A stretch of 23,122 nt of DNA from a virus (IMGVR_UViG_2690316210_000010:1-23122); one strand, 5' to 3'; positions 3,599-23,122 are shown, counted from the first letter of the stretch. Program-made: numbers and translations. Notes: a model not told the origin generated them from the letters alone.

Positions 3599-3895
3599 AA
3601 GGTGCAGGTGCACTATAATTCCACCCGTTCTGGTTTTCAATAGCTACATTCAACATTTTCTCTTTCCTTTCATCACCGAAGTGAACTTTGTTGATGCGGT
3701 GCCTGGTGCCTCCAGGTGACGTTAACCAGTTAACAATTAACGCCGGATACAGGGAAACCCATAACCACCCGATACGGGGGAACTAATCGCTTTTTAACTG
3801 TGCCGCGTGCGCTGAGCCGCATTCACCGCATCACAAAATTCACTTTAAAAAGGGCGGACATCAGCCAGCAATGAAACTGATGCCGCCAAAGGTAC
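3599..3895. repeat. Direct repeat copy 2 (dicF-dicB intergenic region plus DicF-like gene), abutting the IS3-family right end
   Basis: Aligns with 1513-1810; starts immediately after the IS3-family terminus. Confidence 0.8.
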
Positions 3896-8729: not shown

Positions 8730-9095
8730 TTTTTGTTGAACCATGACAGCGTTCTGTACTTCAGGGGCCAGCTTGTCAAAAGTGACGTTCATCGGATCTG
8801 ATTCAGTCTCAACCGGGACAAAGGAAGCAGACTCCTCATCCCAGCGGTTTTCCTGCATATATTCAGCATCCCAGGAATCGAGGGCAGGGCGGGGTATACC
8901 GGGTTTATCCTCGCAAACAAGAAATTTATAAGCGCAGTCCTGAGCTGCAGGGAATTGCTCCAGAAATTGCCAATGAAATTTTGCGCGTGCGCGACGCTCA
9001 TCACCGGCTTCAATGGCAGTGGCCACCGCAACAGCGCTATCTTCTTTTATGGCCTGTTCATCAGGAATAGCAGCGCAAATAAAGACCTTACTCAT
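8697..9095 (-). CDS. Prophage early-left-operon hypothetical protein (132 aa), possibly YdfE-like by position; 3' end overlaps the P1 DnaC-like gene
   Basis: Minus-strand ORF MSKVFICAAIPDEQAIKEDSAVAVATAIEAGDERRARAKFHWQFLEQFPAAQD...; last ~11 codons lie antisense inside the DnaC-like 3' end, so the C-terminus may be junction-derived. Confidence 0.5.
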   Translation of the reverse strand: MSKVFICAAIPDEQAIKEDSAVAVATAIEAGDERRARAKFHWQFLEQFPAAQDCAYKFLVCEDKPGIPRPALDSWDAEYMQENRWDEESASFVPVETESDPMNVTFDKLAPEVQNAVMVQQKLLHNSRKADI

Positions 9096-9190
9096 TTTGT
9101 TTTAACCTCATTACAGATTTCAGGGTGAACGAATCCCTGCCATTGCTGGCATTTTTAATCCGTTGGTATGGTGTTAATATGGCTGGAAGG

Positions 9191-9379
9191 TTATCCAGCC
9201 GGTGTTTCGTTATTCAGGTACAGCGATACTTTTTTTAGCGGGAGGCATTCACCAGAAATTTTTTGCTCGTCTCTTGCCTGGAGGCAGGATTCTTTACTTG
9301 CATAAATTCCGGTAATCACATTCTGTGATTCACCCGTTATAAGAAAAACCGTCATCATCAGTGCAAATGCTGAAGTCAT
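9191..9379 (-). CDS. Small membrane protein downstream of dicB (YdfD-like)
   Basis: MTSAFALMMTVFLITGESQNVITGIYASKESCLQARDEQKISGECLP...; start overlaps the dicB-like stop (ATGA); paralog of 329..520. Confidence 0.5.
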   Translation of the reverse strand: MTSAFALMMTVFLITGESQNVITGIYASKESCLQARDEQKISGECLPLKKVSLYLNNETPAG

Positions 9380-9564
9380 TGACGTTCTCCGAAAATACCA
9401 AGTTCAAGAAGAGCAATTCGGGAAAGTATGGAATTATCATTGAGCAGATAAGGCTCATATTTCCTCATATTAATGGCATCTTCAGTAAACTCCCGGTTAC
9501 TGAGCAGAACACCAATATCAAAACAACCTTCAGACGTATTAACGTTTGGTAATAACGTTTCCAT
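9376..9564 (-). CDS. dicB: DicB-like cell division inhibitor with a divergent C-terminal half
   Basis: N-terminal 35 aa METLLPNVNTSEGCFDIGVLLSNREFTEDAINMRK resemble DicB; the C-terminal half differs from the P0 copy. Confidence 0.65.
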   Translation of the reverse strand: METLLPNVNTSEGCFDIGVLLSNREFTEDAINMRKYEPYLLNDNSILSRIALLELGIFGERQ

Positions 9565-9742
9565 TATCGCGTCCTCAACAATGAATTTTGTGATGCAGTG
9601 CCTGGTGCCTCCAGGTGACGTTAACCAGTTAACAATTAACGCCGGGTTAGTTGATGCTCGTTACGCCCGTAAAATACCGCCTTACTGCTTTAACTGTTCC
9701 GCGTGCGCATAGCCGCATTCACCGCATCACAAAATTCACTTT

Positions 9743-9800
9743 AAAAAGGGCGGCAGAGCAGTCACGGAGTAAAACTGATACCGCCAAATGTCACCAGAAA
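9743..9800 (-). ncRNA. dicF: DicF sRNA (canonical-type)
   Basis: Minus strand reads UUUCUGGUGACAUUUGGCGGUAUCAGUUUUACUCCGUGACUGCUCUGCCGCCCUUUUU, matching my recollection of E. coli DicF apart from about one base; located between the ydfA-like/variable genes and dicB as in Qin. Confidence 0.8.
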
Positions 9801-10135
9801 ATTGATAACAGAGGGCGTTGTAGCGGGGTTGTCACTTAAGCGTATGGTCAACCTGACAACCCGGTGCATTTTCTGGAGCAATGGAGGAAACCCCAGCCAT
9901 ACTTACCGCCGCGCCATTTCGCGGAGTGCCACAACCGGAAGCGCACGGTCGAACTAAATTTAACGACACCGTACAGAGAGACCAATTTCGCCGTGCGCTT
10001 TCGCGTTATGCCCTGACTTTTCAGGGACATATCCTTTCAGTAAGCTGTCAGTGCCGGATGCTCACCCGTGTCCGGCGCACGCACTCCACCTGACCCGTGG
10101 AGAACTCCTTAATTACCAACCCTCAGGAGGGTGAA

Positions 10136-10414
10136 ATGGATAAAAAGCAAATTGAGGCCCTGCAATCTATTATTGAAGAACAAGATGAAGCTATCAGGAT
10201 TCTTTCATATCGCACTGATATGATACTAAATATGCTTTCTGCATTAACGGCTGCGCTTGGTGGTACAAAAACAAACGTATACCGCGAAGTTGTTATTCAA
10301 CAGATAGATAAATTTGAAAAAACCATACCAGGTATTAATGCTCATCTTGCAGAACAAGAGAAAGACCATGCTCTTATGGCAATTTCTTCAGTAGCTCTCC
10401 CGAAAGTTGAGTAG
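10136..10414 (+). CDS. Hypothetical protein (92 aa) in the P2 variable cassette, antisense to the dicB operon
   Basis: ATG 10136 with AGGAGG Shine-Dalgarno; MDKKQIEALQSIIEEQDEAIRILSYRTD...; unrelated to the P1 gene at 4088..4288; 3' end overlaps the convergent gene by 41 nt. Confidence 0.4.
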   Translation: MDKKQIEALQSIIEEQDEAIRILSYRTDMILNMLSALTAALGGTKTNVYREVVIQQIDKFEKTIPGINAHLAEQEKDHALMAISSVALPKVE

Positions 10415-10787
10415 TTTTAATTGTTGTTTTGAAATAATCACTGCTTTCACATTTGAGTGATTTCATGGCAATCCAAATGCGGGCCTCTGTGCCTGCATTT
10501 GGTTCCAGTTGCTGTAGACGTTTTGCGTCTTCCAAAAGTAAGGCGATAATGTGTTTCAGCTTCTCATCATTTGCTTGATTCTTGTTTTCAGGCGAATTCT
10601 GTCCGCCGAATAGGCGCTTCTCTTCATACAGACCTATAAAGGCACGACGCACGTTACCGGATATAGTATCGATGGTTTCCTTTTCTACGGTACTCAGGTC
10701 AAGAGTCGCCAGTTGAGAGCGAACCACATTCGATGCCATTTCCTGGAATGGTACTGGTAAATCTTTAAATTCCATCGTCAACCTCAT
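10374..10787 (-). CDS. Hypothetical protein (137 aa), P2 variable-cassette gene coupled to the ydfA-like gene
   Basis: Shares only MRLTMEFKDLP with the P1 gene 4257..4634, then diverges completely; start overlaps the upstream stop. Confidence 0.5.
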   Translation of the reverse strand: MRLTMEFKDLPVPFQEMASNVVRSQLATLDLSTVEKETIDTISGNVRRAFIGLYEEKRLFGGQNSPENKNQANDEKLKHIIALLLEDAKRLQQLEPNAGTEARIWIAMKSLKCESSDYFKTTIKTTQLSGELLKKLP

Positions 10788-10939
10788 CAGTCAGTGTTTC
10801 TGGTTAACCAGCGACGCGCGCCAGCTTCAGTTTTAAACGTTTTGCTTCTGGTATACGTCATCGCGGTGAACGTACCGTCCTGGTTGGGGAACACGCCACA
10901 TACCAGAGATTCGCTGTTGCCAAGATCGATAGTATCCAT
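10787..10939 (-). CDS. YdfA/YdaF-like small protein
   Basis: MDTIDLGNSESLVCGVFPNQDGTFTAMTYTRSKTFKTEAGARRWLTRNTD; near-identical to 4634..4786. Confidence 0.6.
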   Translation of the reverse strand: MDTIDLGNSESLVCGVFPNQDGTFTAMTYTRSKTFKTEAGARRWLTRNTD

Positions 10940-11124
10940 GCTGACCTCATTTCCCCTTAACGCCGGGGTAGCGGAACAAAAACCTGCTGCATAGTTATTA
11001 AAGTTGAACCCTGCCGTCATGTTCTTACGCCTCGGGCTGGCTACTTAACCCCTGACCACTGCCTGGTAACTCGAAGTATTGCCCTGCATTCTGTGGGGCG
11101 GGGTGGGTTGGTATGAAAAGAAGG

Positions 11125-11167
11125 ATACCCATAGGTATTTAAAAAGTAAATACCCATGGGTAAATTT
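11125..11167. promoter_or_regulatory. OL-like operators with candidate leftward early promoter (P2)
   Basis: Palindromes ATACCCATAGGTAT (11125-11138) and TACCCATGGGTA (11151-11162); on the minus strand a TTTACC / 16-17 bp / TTAAAT promoter-like arrangement overlaps them. Confidence 0.45.
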
Positions 11168-11204
11168 TTGCGGTGTCTTAACTGGTGACTAGTTGTTTGG
11201 TGAG

Positions 11205-11624
11205 CTATGATGCGTTTTGTGCTTTCTTTTTACGGATTTCTTCGTAGATCATATTGTAATACTGTTTTTTCTCTTCAAGAGTTTTTAATAATTTATCCGC
11301 TTCACTTTCTGGCAGTTCGTCTAAGAGATCTAAAAAAATACGTTGTCGTGGCGTTAGAACCCTTGTTTCATAACTGGAGGCTGTGTTCGTTGATGATGAA
11401 ACGATACCATCCATCCATCCCCGGGGTAACCCAAAGGACTCTTCGATAATCTCCACCATATCATCAGCGATCCGTTTTTTTCCCTTTTTCCCCTCTGGGT
11501 ACAACATTCTTGATACATAAGAAGGCTCGCGCCCGATCTTTCTGGCCACGTTAACCGCTTTACCATCGCATTTCTCATCACGAATTTTGATGAGTTGCTG
11601 TCGTCTAAATTCATATTTGTCCAT
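11205..11624 (-). CDS. HTH repressor of the P2 immunity region (RacR/DicA-like position)
   Basis: Start chosen at MDKYEFRRQQLIKIRDEKCDGKAVNVARKIGREPSYVSRML... (HTH); divergent from the Cro-like gene; flanked by operator-like repeats. Confidence 0.6.
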   Translation of the reverse strand: MDKYEFRRQQLIKIRDEKCDGKAVNVARKIGREPSYVSRMLYPEGKKGKKRIADDMVEIIEESFGLPRGWMDGIVSSSTNTASSYETRVLTPRQRIFLDLLDELPESEADKLLKTLEEKKQYYNMIYEEIRKKKAQNAS

Positions 11625-11701
11625 AGGTAAATAATAGATGCGATTACCGCAAGGTAAACAACCTGTGGGTATTGACATTTGTTTACCTGTGGGTATTCTT
11701 T
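11623..11701. promoter_or_regulatory. OR-like operators and candidate rightward promoter for the P2 Cro-like gene
   Basis: Repeated TGGGTA-containing half-sites (ACCTGTGGGTAT twice, CATAGGTAAAT); -35 TTGACA (11673-11678), 16-bp spacer, -10 TATTCT (11695-11700). Confidence 0.45.
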
Positions 11702-11724
11702 GCTGTGTTTACTAAGGAGTAGCT

Positions 11725-12006
11725 ATGGAAGAATTAAGAATATTTCTCAATTCTCTTTCGTCAGATGAACAGCGTATGTTTGCATGCGAGTGTGGTACCA
11801 GCATCGGTTATCTAAGAAAGGCATTGAGTAAAGGTCAAGTGTTAGGGGCATCGTTATGTGTCCTTATTGAGCGAGCCAGTAATGGTGAAGTTACACGTCA
11901 GCAACTAAGGCCTTTTGATTGGATGAATATTTGGCCCGAGCTGGAAGATACCAAAACGTTAACACAACCACTTTCTAGGAGCTTGATTCATGAAAATCAA
12001 GCATGA
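11725..12006 (+). CDS. Cro/YdaS-like HTH regulator (P2)
   Basis: AAGGAG Shine-Dalgarno; ...ECGTSIGYLRKALSKGQ...TRQQLRPFDW...; 3' end overlaps the YdaT-like start. Confidence 0.6.
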   Translation: MEELRIFLNSLSSDEQRMFACECGTSIGYLRKALSKGQVLGASLCVLIERASNGEVTRQQLRPFDWMNIWPELEDTKTLTQPLSRSLIHENQA

Positions 12007-12415
12007 ACACATCCGCATGGCGATGAATGCCTGGGCGCGTCCTGATGGCGAAAAAGTTCCAGCAGCTGGAATAACCCAGGCTTATTTTGAGTTGGGTATG
12101 ACGTTCCCAGAACTGTATGACGACAGCCATCCGGAAGCCCTGGCTCGCAATACCCAGAAAATTTTCCGCTGGGTAGAGAAAGACACCCCTGATGCTGTTG
12201 AAAAAATGCAGGCTCTGTTACCGGCGATCGAAAAGGCGATGCCGCCTTTGCTGGTGGCCCGTATGCGCAGCCACAGTTCTGAATATTACCGTGAGATCGT
12301 CGAACGGAGGGATCGGCTGGTGAAGGATGTCGATGATTTTGTTGCGTCAGCGGTTGTTTTGTATGACCAGATGAATCGCGGCGGCCCGGCAGGGAATGCT
12401 GTGGTGATGCACTAA
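11990..12415 (+). CDS. YdaT-like protein (141 aa, P2)
   Basis: MKIKHEHIRMAMNAWARPDGEK...; paralog of 6439..6864. Confidence 0.6.
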   Translation: MKIKHEHIRMAMNAWARPDGEKVPAAGITQAYFELGMTFPELYDDSHPEALARNTQKIFRWVEKDTPDAVEKMQALLPAIEKAMPPLLVARMRSHSSEYYREIVERRDRLVKDVDDFVASAVVLYDQMNRGGPAGNAVVMH

Positions 12416-12437
12416 AAGCACGGTGTTCGGGGGTTTT

Positions 12438-13400
12438 ATGAGCAGCAAGCTTCATGGTCTTGTCTGGGAAGGGTGCGCCTTCACCGGCATGATCTTATCC
12501 AGGGTGGCGGTTATGGCCCGTCTTGCAGACTACAGCAATGACGAGGGCGTGTCATGGCCTGCCATTGAAACTATCCGGCGTCAGATCGGTGCAAGAAGTG
12601 AATCCACAGTGAAATCGGCTATTGCAGAACTGGCGAAAGAGGGCTGGCTGACGAAGGAAGAGCGTAAGGTCGGTGGGCGTAATGTAAGCAATATCTATCG
12701 GCTTAATGTGGAAAAACTCGAAGCAGCTGCGGCGGCGGCGCGTGAGTCATATAAACCGAAAAGAAAAATTAGCCCGGCAAAAAATGACCCGTTAACAGTT
12801 GACCCGTCAAATATTGACCCCTCAACGGTTGACCCGTCAAATTTTGATGGATCAACTGTTGATAAAAAACTGCCGATTAGGGGGGCGATGATTGACCCCG
12901 ATCCGTCAGTATTAAAACCTGATCCGTCAGATAAAAGATCTTCTTGTCCGGACGCTTCGCAACCGGACCCGCAGACGGCTGAACAGGATTTTTTAACCCG
13001 ACACCCTGACGCGGTTGTGTTCAGTGCGAAAAAACGCCAGTGGGGAAGTCAGGAAGATTTGGTGTGCGCACAGTGGATCTGGGGACGAATCGTGAGTCTT
13101 TACGAGCAGGCGGCCAGCTATGATGGCGAGATCACTAGACCGAAAGAACCCAACTGGACAGCATGGGCCAATGACGTTCGCACAATGCGGATGCTGGATG
13201 GCAGAACTCACAGACAAATTTGTGAAATGTTTGGGCGTCTCCAGCGGGATTCGTTCTGGGTAAAAAACATCATGAGTCCGGCAAAACTCCGGGAAAAATG
13301 GGATGAACTGGTTATCCGCCTGGGGCGTTCGCCTGCGCAGCGTTGCGTGAATCACATTTCTGAACCGGACACTGAAATACCGCCGGGATTCAGGGGGTGA
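12438..13400 (+). CDS. Replication initiator (lambda O-like) with an N-terminal winged-helix domain and embedded iterons
   Basis: ATG 12438; N-terminal HTH-like region (...VSWPAIETIRRQIGARSESTVKSAIAELAKEGWL...); TTGACCCGTCAA iterons in a linker; last 20 aa identical to the P1 initiator. Confidence 0.6.
   Translation: MSSKLHGLVWEGCAFTGMILSRVAVMARLADYSNDEGVSWPAIETIRRQIGARSESTVKSAIAELAKEGWLTKEERKVGGRNVSNIYRLNVEKLEAAAAAARESYKPKRKISPAKNDPLTVDPSNIDPSTVDPSNFDGSTVDKKLPIRGAMIDPDPSVLKPDPSDKRSSCPDASQPDPQTAEQDFLTRHPDAVVFSAKKRQWGSQEDLVCAQWIWGRIVSLYEQAASYDGEITRPKEPNWTAWANDVRTMRMLDGRTHRQICEMFGRLQRDSFWVKNIMSPAKLREKWDELVIRLGRSPAQRCVNHISEPDTEIPPGFRG
12783..12860. repeat. Origin iterons: four to five TTGACCCGTCAA-like repeats at 15-bp spacing inside the P2 O-like gene
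   Basis: TGACCCGTTAAC (12783), TTGACCCGTCAA (12798), TTGACCCCTCAA (12813), TTGACCCGTCAA (12828), then a degenerate TTGATGGATCAA. Confidence 0.6.
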
Positions 13401-13406
13401 CGTGTC

Positions 13407-14153
13407 ATGAAAAACATTGCGGCAGTTGGGGTTCTTGAACGTATTCGCAGACTTGCACCACAGGGGTCGGTTCCACCGTACCGGACGGTGGAGGAGTGGC
13501 GGGAATGGCAACTTGCTGAAGGACGAAAACGCAGCGAGGAGATTAACCGCCAGAATCGCCAGTTGCGGGTGGAAAAAATCCTGAATCGTTCGGGCATCCA
13601 GCCTCTGCACAGCAAATGCTCGTTTGCAAATTATCAGGTGCAGAACGACGGGCAAAAATACGCGCTGAGCCAGGCCAAATCCATAGCTGACGAACTGATG
13701 ACCGGGTGCACGAATTTTGTGTTCAGCGGTAAAACCGGCACCGGGAAAAATCACCTTGCAGCGGCGATGGGCAACCGGCTGATGGTGAAGGGGCGCAGCG
13801 TGATTATCGTCACCGTGTCTGACGTCATGAGCGTGTTGCATGACAGCTACGACAACGGCAAATCCGGTGAAAAATTTTTACAGGAGCTTTGCGGGGTTGA
13901 TTTGCTGGTCCTGGATGAAATAGGCGTTCAGCGGGAGACGAAAAACGAGCAGGTGGTATTGCACCAGATAATTGATCGCCGGACAGCATCACTGTGCAGT
14001 GTCGGGATGTTAACAAACCTGAATCATGCCGCAATGAGTACGCTTCTTGGTGAGAGGATTATGGACCGCATGACCATGAACGGTGGTCGATGGGTGACGT
14101 TTAACTGGGATAGCTGGCGTCCAAATGTCAGCAATATGAGGGTTGTGAAGTAA
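13407..14153 (+). CDS. DnaC-like AAA+ helicase loader (YdaV-like, P2)
   Basis: Walker A and B motifs; near-identical to 7983..8729. Confidence 0.8.
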   Translation: MKNIAAVGVLERIRRLAPQGSVPPYRTVEEWREWQLAEGRKRSEEINRQNRQLRVEKILNRSGIQPLHSKCSFANYQVQNDGQKYALSQAKSIADELMTGCTNFVFSGKTGTGKNHLAAAMGNRLMVKGRSVIIVTVSDVMSVLHDSYDNGKSGEKFLQELCGVDLLVLDEIGVQRETKNEQVVLHQIIDRRTASLCSVGMLTNLNHAAMSTLLGERIMDRMTMNGGRWVTFNWDSWRPNVSNMRVVK

Positions 14154-14174
14154 TTTTGTCCGGAGGAAATTTTA

Positions 14175-14945
14175 ATGGAAACCGTATCTGACGCACTGAA
14201 AGCACTGAAAAAAGCCTCTTCACATGTGGTGGCAGCTCGCCTTGGAATCAGTCGTGAAGAGGCTGTCAACGAGCTGTGGGAACTCAAAAGAAAAGGCGTC
14301 GTTGATAAAACTGGTCACACCTGGTTTCTGGCTGGCGAAGGTGAATCCCGGGTAACCGAAGAGCGGCCAGTAAAATCTGAAGCACAGGATATGCTGACCG
14401 GGGAGGTCGAACAAAAAGTTACCGCAGACATGATGATTGAGTTTATCGGTCAGGATGGGGCTAAAACGTGTGAGGAACTGGCGGGTAAGTTCGGTGTCAG
14501 TACTCGCAAGGTTGCTTCCACGCTGGCGGTGGTAACCGCAACGGGGCGGCTGGCACGCGTTAATCAGAACGGTAAATTTCGTTACTGCATGCCGGGCGAT
14601 AATTTACCAGCAGAGCCGAAAGCCGCGCTGGTAACGGAAAGTGATGGTAAGGCCTTTCCTCAGCCAGCAGGTGCTGCGTTACCAGTCCGGGAAGCCGCAA
14701 CACAGGAAGAAATTAAAACAGAAACTGTGGCGGACATTGTGCAGCCGTTGCCATCGTTTACCGAAACGCAAGCAGATGAGCTGATTTTTCCGTCCCTTCG
14801 CAGGGCAAACCTGGCGCTGCGCAGGGCGAAAAGTGATGTTCAGAAGTGGGAGCGAGTCTGCGCCGCGCTGCGGGAGCTGAACAAGCACCGGGATATTGTT
14901 CGACAGATTACTGATTCTTCCCGCCGTGTTGTATCGGAAAAGTGA
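14175..14945 (+). CDS. Hypothetical protein with two winged-helix-like segments (possibly DUF1627-type)
   Basis: GGAGG Shine-Dalgarno; two repeats of an HTH-like segment (...AARLGISREEAVNELWELKRKG... and ...AGKFGVSTRKVASTLAVVTATG...). Family assignment is from memory and uncertain. Confidence 0.4.
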   Translation: METVSDALKALKKASSHVVAARLGISREEAVNELWELKRKGVVDKTGHTWFLAGEGESRVTEERPVKSEAQDMLTGEVEQKVTADMMIEFIGQDGAKTCEELAGKFGVSTRKVASTLAVVTATGRLARVNQNGKFRYCMPGDNLPAEPKAALVTESDGKAFPQPAGAALPVREAATQEEIKTETVADIVQPLPSFTETQADELIFPSLRRANLALRRAKSDVQKWERVCAALRELNKHRDIVRQITDSSRRVVSEK

Positions 14946-14960
14946 TTGCCGGAGGCGCTT

Positions 14961-15386
14961 ATGGCAAAAGTATTTACACAAGAAGAGCGGGAAAAAATTA
15001 AAGGGCAGGTTGTTGAACTTGTACGTCTGAGCGGTCGCGAGACGTTGCGGCAACTGGAAGCCAAGACAGGTGCGACAAGATATCTGATGAGTGTTCTCGC
15101 CAGAGAGCTGGTTGCCAGTGGCGATGTATACAACTCTGGTTACGGGTTATTCCCGTCTGAACAGGCGCGTAAGGACTGGCAAAATGCTCGCAAAAAACTC
15201 TCAAGGGCAAAGGTGAAGAAACCTGCAGTGGTTGATCCGGACCTTATCTGGTCGTTACCAGACGGCGAAATACGCCGCTACGACAGGCGCCTGAATATAA
15301 TCTGTCGCGAGTGCCGGAAGAGCGAAGCTATGCAGCGTGTACTGGCATTTTATCAAGGAAATGTTAGGTATTTTAGACGTTACTAG
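14961..15386 (+). CDS. Hypothetical protein (142 aa)
   Basis: ATG 14961 with GGAGG Shine-Dalgarno 5 nt upstream; no recognised family. Confidence 0.4.
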   Translation: MAKVFTQEEREKIKGQVVELVRLSGRETLRQLEAKTGATRYLMSVLARELVASGDVYNSGYGLFPSEQARKDWQNARKKLSRAKVKKPAVVDPDLIWSLPDGEIRRYDRRLNIICRECRKSEAMQRVLAFYQGNVRYFRRY

Positions 15387-15539
15387 ATTAAAGAGCATTA
15401 GTTCAGATGTGAATTGACATTTTCATGGCGCAGGGTAGAGCCAGCGTGGTTGTCCGCTTTGCGTCAAAACCAGATATTACCAGATTTAGACATATATTCC
15501 CGATAGCCCTGCTCTGATGCTACACTCTGTGCTATTTTC

Positions 15540-16226
15540 ATGACCCCAATAAAAATATTTATGACTATTGCTGATTTCAAACGGCCTAAATTGGAGCTCC
15601 CAAACGGGGCAAACAAACTACTACTGCACTCTTGCTGTGCTCCATGTTCCGGTGAAGTGATGGAGGCGCTTCAGGCCTCGGGAATCGACTACACCATCTT
15701 TTTCTACAACCCGAACATTCATCCTCAGAAAGAGTATTTAATTCGTAAGGATGAAAATATTCGCTTTGCTGAACAACACGGCGTGCCGTTTATCGATGCT
15801 GATTACGACACCGACAACTGGTTTGAACGTGCCAAAGGAATGGAATGGGAGCCTGAGAGGGGGATCCGTTGTACCATGTGTTTTGACATGCGTTTTGAGC
15901 GGACAGCGTTGTACGCTGCTGAAAATGGTTTCAGTGTGATCAGCAGTTCACTGGGCATTTCACGCTGGAAAAATATGCAGCAGGTTAACGACTGTGGGCG
16001 GCGAGCCGTCGCGCATTATCCGGGCATGGTGTACTGGGATTATAACTGGCGCAAGCAGGGCGGCTCGTCCCGTATGATTGAAATCAGCAAGCGCGAAAAA
16101 TTCTATCAGCAGGAATATTGTGGCTGTGTGTATTCTCTGCGCGATACCAATCTACACCGCAAATCTCAGGGACGCCCTCTTATCAAAATTGGTCAACTCC
16201 ACTACGGTAAAGAAGAGAAGGAGTGA
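15540..16226 (+). CDS. QueH-like protein (DUF208, epoxyqueuosine reductase family)
   Basis: N-terminal [11 protein letters not shown] motif plus further conserved Cys/His/Asp residues resemble DUF208/QueH; no obvious Shine-Dalgarno, so start is uncertain. Confidence 0.55.
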
Positions 16227-16453
16227 TTTTATGGGGCACCTTTCTGATTGATTTCATATTGGCGAGGTAAGTAGAATGACTGCGGGTGCTTGAGGCTATC
16301 TGCTTCAGGCATGAACACCAAAAGGCAGATAGAGAAAAGCCCCAGTTAACATTACGCGTCCGGCAAGACGCTTAACATTAATCTGAGGCCAATTTCATGC
16401 TTTGCACATGTAGGTTAGCCTCTTACATGCCGAAAGGCAAGGAGAAGCAGGCT

Positions 16454-16609
16454 ATGAAGCAGCAAAAGGCGATGTTAATCGCCCTGATCGTCATCTGTTT
16501 AACCGTCATAGTGACGGCACTGGTAACGAGGAAAGACCTCTGTGAGGTACGAATCCGAACCGGCCAGACGGAGGTCGCTGTCTTCGTAGACTACGAATCC
16601 AGGAAGTAA
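16454..16609 (+). CDS. hokD: Hok-family type I toxin (HokD/RelF-like); overlapping upstream Mok-like frame begins at 16397
   Basis: MKQQKAMLIALIVICLTVIVTALVTRKDLCEVRIRTGQTEVAVF... matches Hok/RelF; GGAG Shine-Dalgarno. Confidence 0.75.
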   Translation: MKQQKAMLIALIVICLTVIVTALVTRKDLCEVRIRTGQTEVAVFVDYESRK

Positions 16610-16617
16610 GAGTGACC

Positions 16618-16730
16618 GGGCGGGGAGCTGATCCCATCCCCGCCCACCTCTGATGTGTCAGGCATCCTCAACGCACCCGCACTTAACCCGCCCATCGCTG
16701 TGATCTCTCAGCGTTTCGGCGGGTTTTTTG
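16618..16730 (+). terminator. hok mRNA 3' structured region ending in a rho-independent terminator
   Basis: 9-bp stem GGGCGGGGA/TCCCCGCCC (16618-16645), then CCCGCC...GGCGGG followed by TTTTTTG (16688-16730). Confidence 0.5.
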
Positions 16731-16858
16731 TTGTTTATTTCCGGTGAATTTGATTCGCGCACCTTCGCAGATAGAATCGACTCACTTAAGTAGCGCGCAG
16801 GGAGAAGAGGGATGGACCCCGAACAGGGGAGAGCTATTTATCTGGAAGGATTCTGAAG

Positions 16859-17146
16859 ATGAAAATCGAAGAATTGCGTGAAATTTTTAGTGAAAATGGC
16901 CTCTATGCTGTGCGCGTTGAGAATGGAGCGATTGTCAGCCATTGCCGCATTAGATGTTTGCAATCTCAACAAAGGAAGAGCGGTGCTGTGTTATTTTATT
17001 TTTGTAATGGACTTCTGACGGACGGTTTTATTTTGCGTGAGGACGAATTTGTCACATCATTACGGGTTTTGAAAGAGATTGGTTTTAAGGCTGGTTTTCT
17101 GCTTTTGCTGAAGAATAAACTCATCTACAATCTTGAGCAGGATTGA
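16859..17146 (+). CDS. Hypothetical protein (95 aa) at the Rem-equivalent position
   Basis: ATG 16859 with GGAAGGA Shine-Dalgarno; sits between hok and the DUF1367 gene as rem does in Qin; no sequence recognition. Confidence 0.4.
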   Translation: MKIEELREIFSENGLYAVRVENGAIVSHCRIRCLQSQQRKSGAVLFYFCNGLLTDGFILREDEFVTSLRVLKEIGFKAGFLLLLKNKLIYNLEQD

Positions 17147-17184
17147 ACTCCTGCTGTGTAACACCGTGCCACCGGAGAAAGCCG

Positions 17185-17784
17185 ATGGCACATATACAAC
17201 TGGTCAAACAAACCTCTTCCGGATTACTTCTCCCGGCGACGCCGGAGAGTTGCGATTTTCTGCATCAAATCAAAATAGGTGAGTGGATACACGCAGACTT
17301 TAAGCGTGTGTGTAACTACGCATTCCACAAGCGTTTTTTCAAACTCCTGCAACTGGGTTTCGATTACTGGACTCCGGTCGGTGGGGCGATCACGCCTCGC
17401 GAACGAAAACTGGTGTCCGGTTTCGTTGATTACCTGTGTGAATCAGTAGGCCGGGAACATACGCCAGCTCTGAGCGAAGCCGCAGAGCAATATCTGAATA
17501 CAGTTGCGACACGCAGAACCAGTGATACGGCATTGCTAAAGTCGTTTGAGGCTTTCCGCGAGTGGGTAGCCATTCAGGCCGGATTTTACACCGAGCATTT
17601 TTATCCGGACGGTAGCCGTGGGTGTCGGGCGAAATCTATCGCGTTTGCGAATATGGACGAAACCGAGTTTCAGCAGGTTTATAAATCTGTTCTGAATGTG
17701 CTGTGGAACTGGATTCTGTTCCGTAAATTTTCCTCTCCGGAACAAGTCGAAAATGTGGCCGCGCAGCTGCTGGAGTTTGCGTAA
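17185..17784 (+). CDS. DUF1367-like prophage protein, tandem copy A
   Basis: GGAG Shine-Dalgarno; MAHIQLVKQTSSGLLLPATPESCDFLHQIK...; stop overlaps the next gene start (TAATG). Family assignment from memory. Confidence 0.55.
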   Translation: MAHIQLVKQTSSGLLLPATPESCDFLHQIKIGEWIHADFKRVCNYAFHKRFFKLLQLGFDYWTPVGGAITPRERKLVSGFVDYLCESVGREHTPALSEAAEQYLNTVATRRTSDTALLKSFEAFREWVAIQAGFYTEHFYPDGSRGCRAKSIAFANMDETEFQQVYKSVLNVLWNWILFRKFSSPEQVENVAAQLLEFA

Positions 17785-18074
17785 TGGTGGATTTACGTAA
17801 AGCGGCGCGGGGGCAGATGTGCACCGTCAGAATTCCTGGCTACTGCAATCACGATCCGGAAACGTCTGTGCTGGCGCATTACCGACTGGCGGGAACGTGC
17901 GGAACAGCGATAAAGCCACACGATATGCAGGCAGCGATTGCCTGTAGCTCGTGCCACGATTTAATCGACGGGCGGGTAAAAACCAGCGATTACACCAAAG
18001 AAGAATTACGCCTGATGCATGCAGAAGGTGTTTTTCGCACACAAGAAATCTGGAGAAAGGAGGGATATTTATGA
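17784..18074 (+). CDS. YbcO-like (DUF1364) zinc-binding protein, copy A
   Basis: 96 aa with four paired Cys (C..C...C..C) and position before Q as in DLP12 ybcO; identical in copies B and C. Confidence 0.55.
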
Positions 18075-18448
18075 TTTACCCAACGAATACAGGAAAAAGC
18101 GGAGAACACCTTCGTCTCACCACGCTGGAAAGTGTCTGGATTCAGGGAAAACTACGTATGTGGGGGCGCTGGTCGTATATTGGTGGCGGTAAGACGGGGA
18201 ATATGTTTAACCTGATGTTGACCTCTAAAAAGCTGACAAAAACGGCAATTAACGAGGCGCTCCGGAGGATGAAAAAAGCAGGTCTGAACAAGTCTGAACT
18301 TGCTGCCGCCATGAAGCAGATTAAAGAACTCCAGCGCCTGCTCGGCAAGAAAACGATGGAAAATGAACTCCTCAAAGAAGCCGTTGAATATGGACGGGCA
18401 AAAAAGTGGATAGCGCACGCGCCCTTATTGCCCGGGGATGGGGAGTAA
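18071..18448 (+). pseudogene. Truncated Q-like antiterminator (first ~74 aa) fused in frame to the C-terminal part of IS2 InsC
   Basis: [16 protein letters not shown]...NKSEL, then [48 protein letters not shown] (IS2 InsC C-terminus); junction at the shared 10-mer TCTGAACTTG (18293-18302). Confidence 0.75.
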
Positions 18449-19322
18449 GCTTAGTCAGCCGTTGTCTCCGGGTGTCGCGTGCGCAGTTGCACGTCATTCT
18501 CAGACGAACCGATGACTGGATGGATGGCCGCCGCAGTCGTCACACTGATGATACGGATGTGCTTCTCCGTATACACCATGTTATCGGAGAGCTGCCCACG
18601 TATGGTTATCGTCGGGTATGGGCGCTGCTTCGCAGACAGGCAGAACTTGATGGTATGCCTGCGATCAATGCCAAACGTGTTTACCGGATCATGCGCCAGA
18701 ATGCGCTGTTGCTTGAGCGAAAACCTGCTGTACCGCCATCGAAACGGGCACATACAGGCAGAGTGGCCGTGAAAGAAAGCAATCAGCGATGGTGCTCTGA
18801 CGGGTTCGAGTTCTGCTGTGATAACGGAGAGAGACTGCGTGTCACGTTCGCGCTGGACTGCTGTGATCGTGAGGCACTGCACTGGGCGGTGACTACCGGC
18901 GGCTTCAACAGTGAAACAGTACAGGACGTCATGCTGGGAGCGGTGGAACGCCGCTTCGGCAACGATCTTCCGTCGTCTCCAGTGGAGTGGCTGACGGATA
19001 ATGGTTCATGCTACCGGGCTAATGAAACACGCCAGTTCGCCCGGATGTTGGGACTTGAACCGAAGAACACGGCGGTGCGGAGTCCGGAGAGTAACGGAAT
19101 AGCAGAGAGCTTCGTGAAAACGATAAAGCGTGACTACATCAGTATCATGCCCAAACCAGACGGGTTAACGGCAGCAAAGAACCTTGCAGAGGCGTTCGAG
19201 CATTATAACGAATGGCATCCGCATAGTGCGCTGGGTTATCGCTCGCCACGGGAATATCTGCGGCAGCGGGCTTGTAATGGGTTAAGTGATAACAGATGTC
19301 TGGAAATATAGGGGCAAATCCA
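18293..19322 (+). mobile_element. IS2, 5'-truncated (mid-insC to right end ...GGGGCAAATCCA)
   Basis: insC 3' part, insD and the right terminus are recognisable; the left ~300 bp of IS2 is absent. Confidence 0.85.
18406..19311 (+). CDS. insD: IS2 transposase InsD (natively expressed as an InsCD frameshift product)
   Basis: 301-aa translation ...[32 protein letters not shown]... with DDE motifs. Confidence 0.85.
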
Positions 19323-19364
19323 ACGGGCTGAACACCCATTCTACTGCGCCAGCGGAGAACTACG

Positions 19365-19964
19365 ATGGCGCATATACAACTGATCAAACAAACCTCTTCC
19401 GGATTACTTCTCCCGGCGACGCCGGAGAGTTGCGATTTTCTGCATCAAATCAAAATAGGTGAGTGGATACACGCAGACTTTAAGCGTGTGTGTAACTACG
19501 CATTCCACAAGCGTTTTTTCAAACTCCTGCAACTGGGATTCGATTACTGGACTCCGGTCGGTGGGGCGATCACGCCTCGCGAACGAGAACTGCTGTCTGG
19601 TTTCGTTGATTACCTGTGCGAATCAGTAGGTCGGGAACATACGCCAGCTCTGAGCGAAGCCGCAGAGCAATATCTGAATACAGTTGCGACACGCAGAACC
19701 AGTGATACGGCATTGCTAAAGTCGTTTGAGGCTTTCCGCGAGTGGGTAGCCATTCAGGCCGGATTTTACACCGAGCATTTTTATCCGGACGGTAGCCGTG
19801 GGTGTCGGGCGAAATCTATCGCGTTTGCGAATATGGACGAAACCGAGTTTCAGCAGGTTTATAAATCTGTTCTGAATGTGCTGTGGAACTGGATTCTGTT
19901 CCGTAAATTTTCCTCTCCGGAACAAGTCGAAAATGTGGCCGCGCAGCTGCTGGAGTTTGCGTAA
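19365..19964 (+). CDS. DUF1367-like prophage protein, copy B (mosaic of A-type and C-type sequence)
   Basis: About 99% identical to copy A, but carries C-type substitutions at the 5' end (LIKQ, RERELLSGF). Confidence 0.55.
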   Translation: MAHIQLIKQTSSGLLLPATPESCDFLHQIKIGEWIHADFKRVCNYAFHKRFFKLLQLGFDYWTPVGGAITPRERELLSGFVDYLCESVGREHTPALSEAAEQYLNTVATRRTSDTALLKSFEAFREWVAIQAGFYTEHFYPDGSRGCRAKSIAFANMDETEFQQVYKSVLNVLWNWILFRKFSSPEQVENVAAQLLEFA

Positions 19965-20254
19965 TGGTGGATTTACGTAAAGCGGCGCGGGGGCAGATGT
20001 GCACCGTCAGAATTCCTGGCTACTGCAATCACGATCCGGAAACGTCTGTGCTGGCGCATTACCGACTGGCGGGAACGTGCGGAACAGCGATAAAGCCACA
20101 CGATATGCAGGCAGCGATTGCCTGTAGCTCGTGCCACGATTTAATCGACGGGCGGGTAAAAACCAGCGATTACACCAAAGAAGAATTACGCCTGATGCAT
20201 GCAGAAGGTGTTTTTCGCACACAAGAAATCTGGAGAAAGGAGGGATATTTATGA
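19964..20254 (+). CDS. YbcO-like (DUF1364) protein, copy B
   Basis: Identical translation to copies A and C. Confidence 0.55.
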
Positions 20255-21492
20255 TTTACCCAACGAATACAGGAAAAAGCGGAGAACACCTTCGTCTCAC
20301 CACGCTGGAAAGTGTCTGGATTCAGGGAAAACTACGTATGTGGGGGCGCTGGTCGTATATTGGTGGCGGTAAGACGGGGAATATGTTTAACCTGATGTTG
20401 ACCTCTAAAAAGCTGACAAAAACGGCAATTAACGAGGCGCTCCGGAGGATGAAAAAAGCAGGTCTGAACAAGTCTGAACTTGCTGCCGCCATGAAGCAGA
20501 TTAAAGAACTCCAGCGCCTGCTCGGCAAGAAAACGATGGAAAATGAACTCCTCAAAGAAGCCGTTGAATATGGACGGGCAAAAAAGTGGATAAACGCACG
20601 CGCCCTTATTGCCCGGGGATGGGGAGTAAGCTTAGTCAGCCGTTGTCTCCGGGTGTCGCGTGCGCAGTTGCACGTCATTCTCAGACGAACCGATGACTGG
20701 ATGGATGGCCGCCGCAGTCGTCACACTGATGATACGGATGTGCTTCTCCGTATACACCATGTTATCGGAGAGCTGCCCACGTATGGTTATCGTCGGGTAT
20801 GGGCGCTGCTTCGCAGACAGGCAGAACTTGATGGTATGCCTGCGATCAATGCCAAACGTGTTTACCGGATCATGCGCCAGAATGCGCTGTTGCTTGAGCG
20901 AAAACCTGCTGTACCGCCATCGAAACGGGCACATACAGGCAGAGTGGCCGTGAAAGAAAGCAATCAGCGATGGTGCTCTGACGGGTTCGAGTTCTGCTGT
21001 GATAACGGAGAGAGACTGCGTGTCACGTTCGCGCTGGACTGCTGTGATCGTGAGGCACTGCACTGGGCGGTGACTACCGGCGGCTTCAACAGTGAAACAG
21101 TACAGGACGTCATGCTGGGAGCGGTGGAACGCCGCTTCGGCAACGATCTTCCGTCGTCTCCAGTGGAGTGGCTGACGGATAATGGTTCATGCTACCGGGC
21201 TAATGAAACACGCCAGTTCGCCCGGATGTTGGGACTTGAACCGAAGAACACGGCGGTGCGGAGTCCGGAGAGTAACGGAATAGCAGAGAGCTTCGTGAAA
21301 ACGATAAAGCGTGACTACATCAGTATCATGCCCAAACCAGACGGGTTAACGGCAGCAAAGAACCTTGCAGAGGCGTTCGAGCATTATAACGAATGGCATC
21401 CGCATAGTGCGCTGGGTTATCGCTCGCCACGGGAATATCTGCGGCAGCGGGCTTGTAATGGGTTAAGTGATAACAGATGTCTGGAAATATAG
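20251..21492 (+). pseudogene. Q N-terminal fragment fused in frame to IS2 InsC C-terminus and InsD (single 413-aa chimeric ORF)
   Basis: Same Q::IS2 junction as copy A (20473-20482), plus one extra nucleotide near 20593 (TGGATAAACGCACG versus TGGATAGCGCACG in copy A) that merges the InsC and InsD frames. Confidence 0.7.
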
Positions 21493-21503
21493 GGGCAAAT
21501 CCA
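20473..21503 (+). mobile_element. IS2, 5'-truncated, second copy
   Basis: Same structure and right end as 18293..19322. Confidence 0.85.
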
Positions 21504-21545
21504 ACGGGCTGAACACCCATTCTACTGCGCCAGCGGAGAACTACG

Positions 21546-22145
21546 ATGGCGCATATACAACTGATCAAACAAACCTCTTCCGGATTACTTCTCCCGGCGA
21601 CGCCGGAGAGTTGCGATTTTCTGCATCAAATCAAAACAGGTGAGTGGATACACGCAGACTTTAAGCGTGTGCGTAACTACGCATTCCACAAGCGTTTTTT
21701 CAAACTCCTGCAACTGGGATTCGATTACTGGACTCCGGTCGGTGGGGCGATCACGCCTCGCGAACGAGAACTGCTGTCTGGTTTCGTTGATTACCTGTGC
21801 GAATCAGTAGGTCGGGAACATACGCCAGCTCTGAGCGAAGCCGCAGAGCAATATCTGAATACAGTTGCGACACGCAGAACCCGGGATACGGCATTGCTAA
21901 AGTCGTTTGAGGCTTTTCGCGAGTGGGTAACCATTCAGGCTGGATTTTACACCGAACATTTTTATCCGGACGGTAGCCGCGGGCGTCGGGCAAAATCCAT
22001 CGCTTTTGCGAATATGGACGAAACCGAGTTTCAGCAGGTTTATAAATCTGTTCTGAATGTGCTGTGGAACTGGATTCTGTTCCGTAAATTTTCCTCTCCG
22101 GAACAAGTCGAAAATGTGGCCGCGCAGCTGCTGGAGTTTGCGTAA
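21546..22145 (+). CDS. DUF1367-like prophage protein, copy C (most diverged)
   Basis: Several substitutions relative to A and B (KTGEW, RVRNY, TRDTALL, WVTIQ, RGRRAKS). Confidence 0.55.
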   Translation: MAHIQLIKQTSSGLLLPATPESCDFLHQIKTGEWIHADFKRVRNYAFHKRFFKLLQLGFDYWTPVGGAITPRERELLSGFVDYLCESVGREHTPALSEAAEQYLNTVATRRTRDTALLKSFEAFREWVTIQAGFYTEHFYPDGSRGRRAKSIAFANMDETEFQQVYKSVLNVLWNWILFRKFSSPEQVENVAAQLLEFA

Positions 22146-22435
22146 TGGTGGATTTACGTAAAGCGGCGCGGGGGCAGATGTGCACCGTCAGAATTCCTGG
22201 CTACTGCAATCACGATCCGGAAACGTCTGTGCTGGCGCATTACCGACTGGCGGGAACGTGCGGAACAGCGATAAAGCCACACGATATGCAGGCAGCGATT
22301 GCCTGTAGCTCGTGCCACGATTTAATCGACGGGCGGGTAAAAACCAGCGATTACACCAAAGAAGAATTACGCCTGATGCATGCAGAAGGTGTTTTTCGCA
22401 CACAAGAAATCTGGAGAAAGGAGGGATATTTATGA
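22145..22435 (+). CDS. YbcO-like (DUF1364) protein, copy C
   Basis: Identical translation to copies A and B. Confidence 0.55.
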   Translation: MVDLRKAARGQMCTVRIPGYCNHDPETSVLAHYRLAGTCGTAIKPHDMQAAIACSSCHDLIDGRVKTSDYTKEELRLMHAEGVFRTQEIWRKEGYL

Positions 22436-22986
22436 TTTACCCAACGAATACAGGAAAAAGCGGAGAACACCTTCGTCTCACCACGCTGGAAAGTGTCTGG
22501 ATTCAGGGAAAACTACGTATGTGGGGGCGCTGGTCGTATATTGGTGGCGGTAAGACGGGGAATATGTTTAACCTGATGTTGACCTCTAAAAAGCTGACAA
22601 AAACGGCAATTAACGAGGCGCTCCGGAGGATGAAAAAAGCAGGTCTGAACAAGTCTGAACTTGAGGCTTTTTTGCGGGATATGATTAACGGTAAGCAAAA
22701 GAGCTGGCTGGCGCATTGTACTGATGCAGAGGCGTTATGTATTGATCGGGTCATAAGTGAGGTGCTGGCAGAGCATCCAGGATTGATTAGCGTCCTTCGG
22801 CAACGGTATGAGGGGCGGGGGATGACCAAACGCAAAATGGCTGAACTGCTGAATGATGCACACCCGAAATGGAGTTTAAGAACCTGTGAAAGACGCATTG
22901 AGCATTGGCTAAAGGTGGCAGAATTTATTTTGTACAAACCAATGGTTATGGCTTTTGGTATAGAGAAAAAAGTTATTGCTTTTTGA
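22432..22986 (+). CDS. Putative late-gene antiterminator Q-like protein, intact copy (184 aa)
   Basis: ATG 22432 with AGGAGG Shine-Dalgarno; position after the YbcO-like gene and before a terminator-containing intergenic region; assignment is by synteny, not by recognised sequence. Confidence 0.5.
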   Translation: MIYPTNTGKSGEHLRLTTLESVWIQGKLRMWGRWSYIGGGKTGNMFNLMLTSKKLTKTAINEALRRMKKAGLNKSELEAFLRDMINGKQKSWLAHCTDAEALCIDRVISEVLAEHPGLISVLRQRYEGRGMTKRKMAELLNDAHPKWSLRTCERRIEHWLKVAEFILYKPMVMAFGIEKKVIAF

Positions 22987-23062
22987 CGTAAAAACTGCTT
23001 CAATTCTTGTACGCTTCGCAAAGCTGTACCGCGAGGCGAATAGCAGACATGGACATTTGAAA

Positions 23063-23088
23063 GAGCCCGCTTTATGCGGGTTTTTTTA
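23063..23088 (+). terminator. Rho-independent terminator downstream of Q (candidate tR'-like terminator of the late leader transcript)
   Basis: Hairpin CCCGC-TTTAT-GCGGG followed by TTTTTTT. Confidence 0.6.
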
Positions 23089-23122
23089 TACCTGAAAAAC
23101 GGCACAGGACGTTAAACGTGCT

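What the first reader, a model, noticed from the sequence alone, without database searches (positions are those of the whole stretch)
17185..22986. Tandem triplication of a DUF1367 / YbcO-like / Q module created by microhomology junctions between Q and the middle of IS2
Three head-to-tail copies occur with a 2180-2181-bp period. In copies A and B the Q gene stops at codon ~74 and continues directly into IS2 at mid-insC, sharing the 10-mer TCTGAACTTG; this is an illegitimate or microhomology-mediated join, not a transposition, since no IS2 left end is present. Each partial IS2 runs to its normal right end and is followed by an identical 42-bp flank and the next copy. Only copy C has an intact Q with the downstream terminator, so the array holds two dead Q fragments and one live Q. 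This is either an ongoing amplification at the late-gene switch or an assembly artefact.
Basis: seen in the sequence. Interest (0 to 1): 0.8.

Follow-up and report, generated by a model that had tools for sequence, protein, structure and literature searches.

The report
Scaffolding artefact, not a real triplication
The three tandem copies of a prophage late-regulator module are in the sequence as described, but the window is a scaffolded, gap-filled short-read contig (probably Shigella sonnei) that strings together prophage loci lying far apart in a closely related finished genome, so the triplication is an assembly construct.

Summary
The repeat is present as described. There are three head-to-tail units (periods 2180 and 2181 bp), each holding DUF1367, YbcO and a DUF1133 Q-like gene. 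Q is cut at codon 77 and joined in frame to mid-insC of IS2 through the shared word TCTGAACTTG.

The window is the whole of draft contig CXAQ01000120.1. The deposited record has single N scaffold gaps at 3599, 8739 and 20594, and the window shows A at those positions. One gap lies inside the IS2 part of unit B.

In the finished relative CP180280.1 the pieces come from four prophage loci between 1.87 and 3.57 Mb. Copy A equals "locus A", where Q is intact. Copy C equals "locus C", where a complete IS2 with an ACGGG target duplication sits exactly where the window's partial IS2 copies end. Copy B occurs nowhere else and is a pure A/C mosaic. Its phase switches only across SNP gaps of 30 nt or more, as 30-mer gap filling would give.

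The junction is absent from 5,426 E. coli genomes, IMG/VR, JGI metagenomes and a 153-billion-gene index. It may still be read-supported, as one isolate-specific duplication or as chimeric reads. Verdict: not a real triplication; low interest.

The parts
17163..19342 (+). Unit A. It holds DUF1367 haplotype A (17185-17784), YbcO (17784-18074), truncated Q' (18071-18302) and partial IS2 (18293-19322), followed by the first 20 nt of the 42-nt flank.
   Evidence: Window 15918-18302 is identical to 'locus A' of finished relatives (L020, L022), where Q is intact.
18293..18302 (+). First junction: the 10-nt word TCTGAACTTG shared by the Q-like gene (codons 75-77, SEL) and IS2 insC.
   Evidence: The IS2 match begins at 18293. 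Copy C diverges from A and B at r=1140. The fusion is in frame.
18293..19322 (+). Partial IS2 (IS2 positions 302-1331). It carries the 3' part of insC, the A6G slippery site and all of insD, and ends at the normal right end.
   Evidence: It is identical to the IS2 at locus C of CP180280.1 (L031).
19323..19364 (+). The 42-nt flank between the IS2 right end and the DUF1367 start codon. It begins with ACGGG, the target-site duplication of the complete IS2 in the relative.
19343..21523 (+). Unit B. It holds the DUF1367 mosaic haplotype (19365-19964), YbcO (19964-20254), Q' (20251-20482) and partial IS2 (20473-21503).
   Evidence: This exact DUF1367 protein is found only in this contig. At all 27 sites where A and C differ, B carries either the A or the C allele. 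Phase switches occur only across SNP gaps of 30 nt or more.
20473..20482 (+). Second copy of the TCTGAACTTG junction.
20594..20594 (.). Scaffold gap: 'N' in the deposited record, shown as 'A' in the window. It lies inside the IS2 part of unit B, 111 nt after the junction. The base before it (20593, A) disagrees with canonical IS2 (G).
   Evidence: It creates the spurious 413-aa Q'-InsC'-InsD open frame at 20251-21492.
21524..23122 (+). Unit C. It holds DUF1367 haplotype C (21546-22145), YbcO (22145-22435), the intact DUF1133 Q-like gene (22432-22986) and 136 nt running to the contig end.
   Evidence: Window 21503-23122 is 100% identical to locus C of S. sonnei 53G (L029). Window 20473-23122 is colinear with L031 apart from the N site. 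Pfam: DUF1133 at 2e-107 and Phage_antitermQ at 29.4 bits.
15918..15991 (.). A 74-nt interval inside queH where the contig switches from prophage P_2 of the relative (1.87 Mb) to locus A (3.57 Mb).
   Evidence: Window 8740-15991 has 1 mismatch to L043 and then diverges. Window 15918-18302 is identical to L022.
8739..8739 (.). Scaffold gap ('N' in the record). It joins the 3' flank of prophage 1's DnaC-like gene to a truncated ydfE of prophage P_2.
   Evidence: The 132-aa ORF that spans this join is unique to this contig.
3599..3599 (.). Scaffold gap ('N' in the record) between the IS600 right end and the second copy of a 291-nt prophage segment.

Best explanation
The array is a product of short-read assembly, scaffolding and gap filling. 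It is not a triplication in the chromosome.

The window is the complete draft contig CXAQ01000120.1. This is inferred to be Shigella sonnei assembled with the Sanger Velvet + SSPACE + GapFiller pipeline. The contig consists of four scaffold pieces separated by single Ns: 1-3598, 3600-8738, 8740-20593 and 20595-23122.

The genome most likely holds two ordinary copies of the DUF1367-YbcO-Q module at different prophage loci. Locus A is Rem-DUF1367(A)-YbcO-Q. Locus C is a complete IS2, then the 42-nt flank, then DUF1367(C)-YbcO-Q. The two loci are identical from the middle of DUF1367 to the end of the contig, more than 1.1 kb, which is longer than typical short-read inserts of 300-500 bp.

The assembler attached locus A to locus C. 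The sequence between them, including the middle copy, was written by greedy extension from a pool of reads from both loci. That explains the A/C mosaic, the repeated traversal and the unclosed N inside IS2.

Shown here: the Ns, the locus assignments, the mosaic and the uniqueness of the junction.

Inferred: which software was used and the order of its steps.

The origin of the junction word stays open. Because an N lies 111 nt beyond the second junction, junction-spanning reads probably exist. They could come from one real isolate-specific duplication or circle at locus C, or from chimeric fragments. The alternative is a gap closure on GapFiller's minimum overlap of 10 nt.
For: 1. The window equals a 23,122-bp draft contig. 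The record has N at 3599, 8739 and 20594 where the window has A.

2. Sibling drafts carry the same marks. CXDS01000125.1 has a single N exactly at a pseudo-tandem DicB-DUF1482 duplication, and CXCY01000166.1 has a run of 198 Ns.

3. Accession prefixes CXAA to CXAO are listed as S. sonnei (ERP001362) assemblies of the Velvet/SSPACE/GapFiller pipeline. The authors state that its greedy steps can make false joins.

4. In the finished relative CP180280.1 the pieces map to four loci:
- 2.24 Mb (window 1-1803 and 3599-8738)
- 1.87 Mb (8739-15991, 1 mismatch)
- 3.57 Mb (15918-18302, identical)
- 2.03 Mb (20473-23122)

5. At 2.03 Mb the relative has a complete 1331-bp IS2 with an ACGGG duplication, ending exactly where the window's partial IS2 copies end, followed by an intact Q.

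6. Copy A equals locus A and copy C equals locus C at all 27 differing sites. Copy B has no private base and alternates C/A/C/A. Phase switches occur at 0 of 20 SNP gaps under 30 nt and at 3 of 6 gaps of 30 nt or more. This matches GapFiller's 30-mer extension.

7. Products that exist only in this contig among 153 billion gene positions are the 125-aa Q'::InsC' fusion, DUF1367-B and the ORF that spans the join at 8739. Haplotypes A and C are common.

8. The junction is absent from 5,426 complete E. coli genomes, from IMG/VR and from JGI metagenome contigs.

9. The shared word is exactly 10 nt, which is GapFiller's default closing overlap. It is also the first word of 10 nt or more shared with IS2 after the last allele-specific site.
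Against: - I could not see the reads, so depth and junction support are untested.
- CXAQ itself is not in the stored part of the pipeline's accession table; only neighbouring prefixes are.
- The comparison genome is a relative, not the same isolate. Shigella genomes do rearrange at IS elements.
- I could not reconstruct the exact software steps. GapFiller's gap-size check should resist insertions of about 2 kb.
- A closure on the 10-mer cannot by itself explain why IS2 sequence continues for 111 nt on the left side of the N in unit B. That points to real junction-spanning reads.
- Three distinct haplotypes in one contig is also what a real three-copy array would give.
Confidence: 0.85

Rival explanations
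1. One real, isolate-specific tandem duplication (or an excised circle, or a subpopulation carrying either) exists at locus C. It formed by RecA-independent, microhomology-mediated exchange between TCTGAACTTG in the Q-like gene and the same word in insC of the IS2 upstream. The assembler then went round the resulting cycle once too often and attached locus A. This is nested inside the best explanation: the junction is real, but the copy number and linkage are artefactual.
For: - The junction geometry is exactly what such a duplication of locus C would give: IS2 lies upstream in the same orientation, and IS2' continues into the locus C flank.
- IS2 sequence continues for 111 nt beyond junction 2 before the N. 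Under 30-mer extension that requires reads spanning the junction.
- The pipeline's improvement step uses only reads that are not proper pairs, which would enrich junction reads.
Against: - The junction is found in no other assembly.
- Exactly 10 nt equals the gap closer's default overlap.
- Recurrent chimeric library fragments could give the same reads.
- No read data could be examined.
Confidence: 0.35
2. The triplication is real exactly as drawn. It would be a three-unit amplification at a hybrid locus A/locus C prophage, with two truncated Q'-InsC' fusion genes and one live Q.
For: - Three distinguishable haplotypes and two identical junctions are present in the deposited sequence.
- Shigella genomes are rich in IS-driven rearrangement.
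Against: - There is an N inside unit B.
- The units contain identical stretches of more than 660 nt and of 1030 nt that short reads cannot bridge.
- Copies A and C are separate loci 1.5 Mb apart in the relative.
- The same contig also chains two further distant prophages through N joins.
- Copy B would need three exchanges within 480 bp.
Confidence: 0.05
3. The joins were made by IS2 itself, through aberrant or one-ended transposition or a minicircle or figure-eight intermediate.
For: The partial IS2 copies end at a genuine right inverted repeat next to a genuine target site.
Against: - The left boundary lies inside insC at IS2 position 302, not at an inverted repeat.
- There is no left end in the window.
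- The join uses a 10-nt word shared with the target gene, which is not how IS3-family transposases cut (established knowledge of IS3-family copy-out/paste-in transposition).
Confidence: 0.02

Closest known systems
False joins and repeat over-expansion from greedy scaffolding and gap closing (SSPACE/GapFiller) of short-read assemblies across multi-copy prophage and IS repeats
   Same: - Single-N joins are present.
- The pieces map to distant loci in a finished relative.
- Repeats longer than the insert size are traversed.
- The filled sequence is a phase-switching mosaic of two paralogous loci.
- The shared word equals the closer's 10-nt minimum overlap.
   Different: I could not reproduce the exact steps. 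An insertion of about 2 kb is larger than GapFiller's size check should allow, so some part (the junction) may rest on real reads.
Microhomology-mediated (short-junction) tandem duplication and amplification in enterobacteria
   Same: The units are head to tail, with a novel join at a 10-nt shared word between two unrelated sequences. No transposase site is involved.
   Different: The copies derive from two different loci plus a mosaic. There is an unclosed gap inside the array. No independent assembly carries the join.
Ordinary IS2 insertion upstream of DUF1367 in a Shigella sonnei lambdoid prophage remnant (locus C of CP180280.1)
   Same: It has the same right end, the same 42-nt flank, the same downstream DUF1367(C)-YbcO-Q and the ACGGG target site.
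   Different: The relative has the complete 1331-bp element with both ends. The window shows only positions 302-1331, preceded by Q'.
Lambdoid late-regulation module DUF1367 / YbcO (DUF1364) / DUF1133 Q-like gene, as annotated in many E. coli prophages
   Same: The gene order and families are the same. It is 99% identical to prophages of E. coli FDAARGOS_944.
   Different: Nothing differs in copy C. Antitermination activity of the DUF1133 protein was not tested here.

Membership tests
Genuine tandem gene amplification | Head-to-tail units with the same novel junction at each unit boundary | tested here: met
   Spacing is 2180 and 2181 bp. The TCTGAACTTG joins at 18293 and 20473 are identical.
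Genuine tandem gene amplification | Units derive from one parental locus, so copies are identical or differ only by new mutations | tested here: not met
   Copy A equals locus A and copy C equals locus C of finished relatives at all 27 differing sites. Copy B is a mosaic of the two.
Genuine tandem gene amplification | Uninterrupted sequence evidence across the array | tested here: not met
   The deposited record has an N at 20594 inside unit B. Identical stretches of 660 nt and 1030 nt exceed typical short-read insert sizes.
Genuine tandem gene amplification | Raised read depth over the unit, and reads or long molecules spanning the junction | not testable with these tools
   There is no access to the reads of this isolate.
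Scaffold / gap-filling misassembly | The sequence comes from a scaffolding pipeline and carries gap marks at the joins | tested here: met
   Ns lie at 3599, 8739 and 20594. Sibling drafts carry N joins too. Neighbouring accession prefixes are listed for the Velvet/SSPACE/GapFiller pipeline. The pipeline assignment of CXAQ itself is inferred.
Scaffold / gap-filling misassembly | Adjacent segments are non-adjacent in a finished close relative, with breakpoints at repeat boundaries | tested here: met
   The pieces map to four loci at 1.87, 2.03, 2.24 and 3.57 Mb of CP180280.1. The switches occur at a 74-nt shared stretch, at IS ends and at the ends of shared homology.
Scaffold / gap-filling misassembly | The filled sequence shows consensus or phase errors of the filling algorithm | tested here: met
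   The copy B mosaic switches only across SNP gaps of 30 nt or more (0 of 20 against 3 of 6). There is a wrong base next to the N. GapFiller's k-mer is 30.
IS2 transposition event | Both inverted repeats present, flanked by a 5-bp target duplication | tested here: not met
   There is no IS2 left end in the window and the left boundary is at IS2 position 302. The complete element with the ACGGG duplication exists only in the relative.
Phage Q-type antiterminator (Pfam Phage_antitermQ / DUF1133) | Sequence match to the family above the curated cut-off | tested here: met
   Copy C matches DUF1133 at 2e-107 and Phage_antitermQ at 29.4 bits against a cut-off of 26, over residues 69-163. The truncated copies keep only residues 1-77.
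Phage Q-type antiterminator (Pfam Phage_antitermQ / DUF1133) | Antitermination at a late promoter and terminator | not tested
   No promoter-like or terminator-like site was found at 22300-23122 by the simple scan. There is no functional assay.

The most novel reading that the evidence does not exclude
The Q'::IS2 junction is real in this isolate. A 10-bp microhomology exchange between the Q-like gene and the IS2 upstream would have produced a tandem duplication, or an unstable amplification present in part of the culture, of the DUF1367-YbcO-Q' unit at locus C. Each extra unit would encode an in-frame Q'(1-77)-InsC'(C-terminal) protein. With the normal IS2 frameshift it would also encode a Q'-InsC'-InsD protein lacking the InsC DNA-binding domain.
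Probability: 0.3. Interest if true: 0.25.

Novelty: not a real feature. Interest (0 to 1): 0.08.

Why it matters
If the array were real, it would be a small example of microhomology-driven amplification at a prophage late-gene switch. That process is already well documented, so even then it would be a minor finding.

As it stands, the value is cautionary.
- Contigs of scaffolded, gap-filled short-read drafts of IS-rich genomes can contain invented tandem arrays, mosaic paralogues and fusion ORFs.
- Replacing N by A when the window was prepared hid the gap marks and created a false 413-aa in-frame transposase fusion.

Tried and rejected
- **Junction in public data.** I searched for it in 5,426 complete E. 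coli genomes, IMG/VR, JGI metagenome contigs and the exact-protein index. It occurs only in this contig.
- **Apparent matches in E. coli.** The whole-region hits H1-H4 looked like a similar structure, but they are an unrelated IS2 in another gene of a single-copy module.
- **A real constitutive-fusion mutation.** I considered that the 'G to AA' change just after the IS2 slippery site was a real mutation making a constitutive InsCD-type fusion. It is rejected because the second A is an N in the record.
- **IS1|IS600 join as a second computational junction.** I first took the blunt IS1|IS600 mid-element join (2517|2518) for another such join. It is rejected because the same join exists in the finished relative.
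- **10-nt GapFiller closure as the sole origin of both junctions.** This is weakened because IS2 sequence continues for 111 nt on the left of the N in unit B.
- **IS2-mediated mechanisms.** Rejected from the position of the junction.
- **Literature search by accession.** It found nothing.
- **Look-up of the IS1'::IS600' chimeric ORF with my chosen start codon.** It found nothing.


Full report
**Observation.** The repeat is in the sequence as described.
- Three head-to-tail units start at 17163, 19343 and 21524, with spacings of 2180 and 2181 bp.
- Each unit encodes DUF1367, YbcO/DUF1364 and a DUF1133 protein. The DUF1133 protein also passes the Pfam cut-off for Phage_antitermQ.
- In units A and B the Q-like gene is cut after codon 77 and continues into IS2. 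The IS2 match starts at 18293.
- TCTGAACTTG is common to both partners and the identity is exactly 10 nt.
- The join is in frame. It predicts a 125-aa Q'(1-77)-InsC'(C-terminal) protein.
- No IS2 left end exists in the window.
- Each partial IS2 (positions 302-1331) ends at its normal right end and is followed by the same 42 nt and the next DUF1367 start codon.
- Copy C has an intact 184-aa Q-like gene.
- A simple scan finds no terminator-like site after that gene.

**The copies are not equal.** Below, r is the offset from the unit start.
- A differs from B at 14 sites in the first 290 nt.
- B differs from C at 13 sites at r=113-480.
- All three are identical from r=481 to the junction.
- A and B also differ by 'G' against 'AA' just after the IS2 A6G slippery site. 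In the window this opens a 413-aa Q'-InsC'-InsD frame.

**Where the window comes from.**
- The 125-aa fusion protein is on record in one place only: contig CXAQ01000120.1 of GCA_001261215.1. That contig is 23,122 bp, so it is the whole window.
- Exact proteins of the window recur in finished genomes of about 4.9 Mb, including HE616528.1, which I know as Shigella sonnei 53G.
- The supplement of Page et al. 2016 lists accession prefixes CXAA to CXAO as S. sonnei (study ERP001362) assembled by the Sanger Velvet + SSPACE + GapFiller pipeline, with 373-451 contigs each. CXAQ is not in the stored part of the table, so its assignment is an inference from the adjacent prefixes.
- The authors say the scaffolder and gap closer are greedy and can make false joins. 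They also say the improvement step uses only reads that are not proper pairs.

**Hidden gap marks.**
- Comparing the window with the deposited contig shows three differences. The record has 'N' at 3599, 8739 and 20594 where the window has 'A'.
- The window is therefore four scaffold pieces: 1-3598, 3600-8738, 8740-20593 and 20595-23122.
- The 'G to AA' in unit B is in fact a wrong base followed by an N. It is an unclosed gap inside the IS2 part of unit B, 111 nt after the second junction.
- The 413-aa fusion frame is an artefact of the N-to-A replacement.
- Sibling drafts show the same marks. CXDS01000125.1 has a single N exactly at a pseudo-tandem DicB-DUF1482 duplication that other assemblies lack. 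CXCY01000166.1 has a run of 198 Ns.

**Comparison with a finished close relative.** CP180280.1 shares with the window a peculiar blunt IS1|IS600 mid-element join, so it is close kin. In it the parts of the window lie at four prophage loci.

| Window segment | Locus in CP180280.1 | Match |
|---|---|---|
| 1-1803 and 3599-8738 | 2.24 Mb | continuous there, with no insert |
| 8739-15991 | 1.87 Mb (prophage P_2) | 1 mismatch |
| 15918-18302 | 3.57 Mb (locus A) | identical |
| 20473-23122 | 2.03 Mb (locus C) | identical apart from the N site |

- In prophage P_2 of the relative, ydfE is intact, and queH-hok is followed by DUF968-RusA and a different antiterminator.
- At locus A the gene order is Rem-DUF1367(A)-YbcO and an intact Q.
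- At locus C the relative has a complete 1331-bp IS2 flanked by the 5-bp duplication ACGGG. It ends exactly where the window's partial IS2 copies end, and it is followed by DUF1367(C)-YbcO and an intact Q.
- Loci A and C are identical from r=481 to the end of the contig, more than 1.1 kb. Short-read pairs cannot tell which upstream half belongs to which downstream half.

**The middle copy.**
- At all 27 sites where loci A and C differ, copy A carries the A allele and copy C the C allele. Copy B carries one or the other with no private base, in the order C, A, C, A.
- Its DUF1367 protein exists nowhere else among 153 billion gene positions. Haplotypes A and C are common.
- Phase never switches between SNPs closer than 30 nt (0 of 20 gaps). 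It switches at 3 of the 6 gaps of 30 nt or more, which are 73, 47 and 70 nt long.
- GapFiller extends gap edges one base at a time with 30-mers and a majority vote. Random phase at every gap longer than the k-mer is what such filling from a mixed read pool gives.
- A real recombinant would need three exchanges within 480 bp.

**The junction itself.**
- It is absent from 5,426 complete E. coli genomes, from IMG/VR, from JGI metagenome contigs and from all other assemblies in the gene index.
- Two origins remain.
  - It may be computational. GapFiller accepts a closure on an overlap of at least 10 nt, which is exactly the length seen. The word is also the first one of 10 nt or more shared with IS2 after the last allele-specific site.
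  - It may rest on reads. In unit B, IS2 sequence continues for 111 nt on the left side of the N. Under 30-mer extension this needs reads that span the join.
- Such reads could come from one real duplication, or an excised circle, of the locus C unit in this isolate or in part of the culture. They could also come from chimeric library fragments, which the pipeline's read selection would enrich.
- I put about 0.3-0.35 on a real single junction and about 0.05 on the three-unit array being real as drawn.

**Mechanism rejected.** IS2 transposition does not explain the join. The boundary is inside insC and not at an inverted repeat, and the join uses homology with the target gene.

**Verdict.** The triplication is best explained as a scaffolding and gap-filling construct that links two ordinary, separate copies of a common lambdoid late-regulation module through an invented middle copy. 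Interest is low. The only open point is whether a single microhomology duplication exists in this isolate, which its reads or one PCR would settle.

Noticed in passing
window 3599, 8739, 20594: The window shows 'A' where the deposited contig has 'N'. Replacing N by A hides scaffold gaps and creates false ORFs, for example the 413-aa frame at 20251-21492.
   Followed up: yes
window 1881-3598; L031 2611-4337: A blunt mid-element join of IS1 (positions 1-637) to the interior of IS600 (through to its right end) gives a chimeric IS1-DDE/IS3-OrfA ORF at 2129-2698. The same join exists, with different flanks, next to locus C in the finished relative CP180280.1. It is therefore a real, lineage-specific IS fossil.
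   Followed up: partly
window 1513-1803 and 3599-3889: A 291-nt direct repeat (99.3% identical) flanks the IS1'::IS600' block. The relative has this segment once and uninterrupted, and an N sits at 3599. This is a second pseudo-duplication made by scaffolding.
   Followed up: partly
window 1-8738 vs 8739-14157: Two lambdoid early regions (dicB, repressor/cro-like genes, ydaT, O-like and DnaC-like genes) appear to lie in tandem at 75-97% identity. They belong to two different prophages, at 2.24 Mb and 1.87 Mb in the relative, joined at an N.
   Followed up: yes
window 5063-5547 (- strand): A PaaA2/ParE-type antitoxin-toxin pair sits next to the repressor of prophage 1, by precomputed Pfam hits.
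   Followed up: no
window 7323-7399 and 12764-12862: Short tandem repeats (periods 10-12 and 15/30) lie inside the two O-like replication genes. They look like lambdoid origin iterons.
   Followed up: no
window 15540-16226: A prophage-borne queH (epoxyqueuosine reductase) is followed by hok and a Rem-family gene. The contig switches from one prophage's queH allele to another's within a 74-nt identical stretch (15918-15991).
   Followed up: partly
L008 11330 (CXDS01000125.1): A sibling draft from the same accession series has a single-N join that creates a tandem, 90%-identical second DicB-DUF1482 copy. This suggests that such pseudo-duplications recur in this batch of assemblies.
   Followed up: partly
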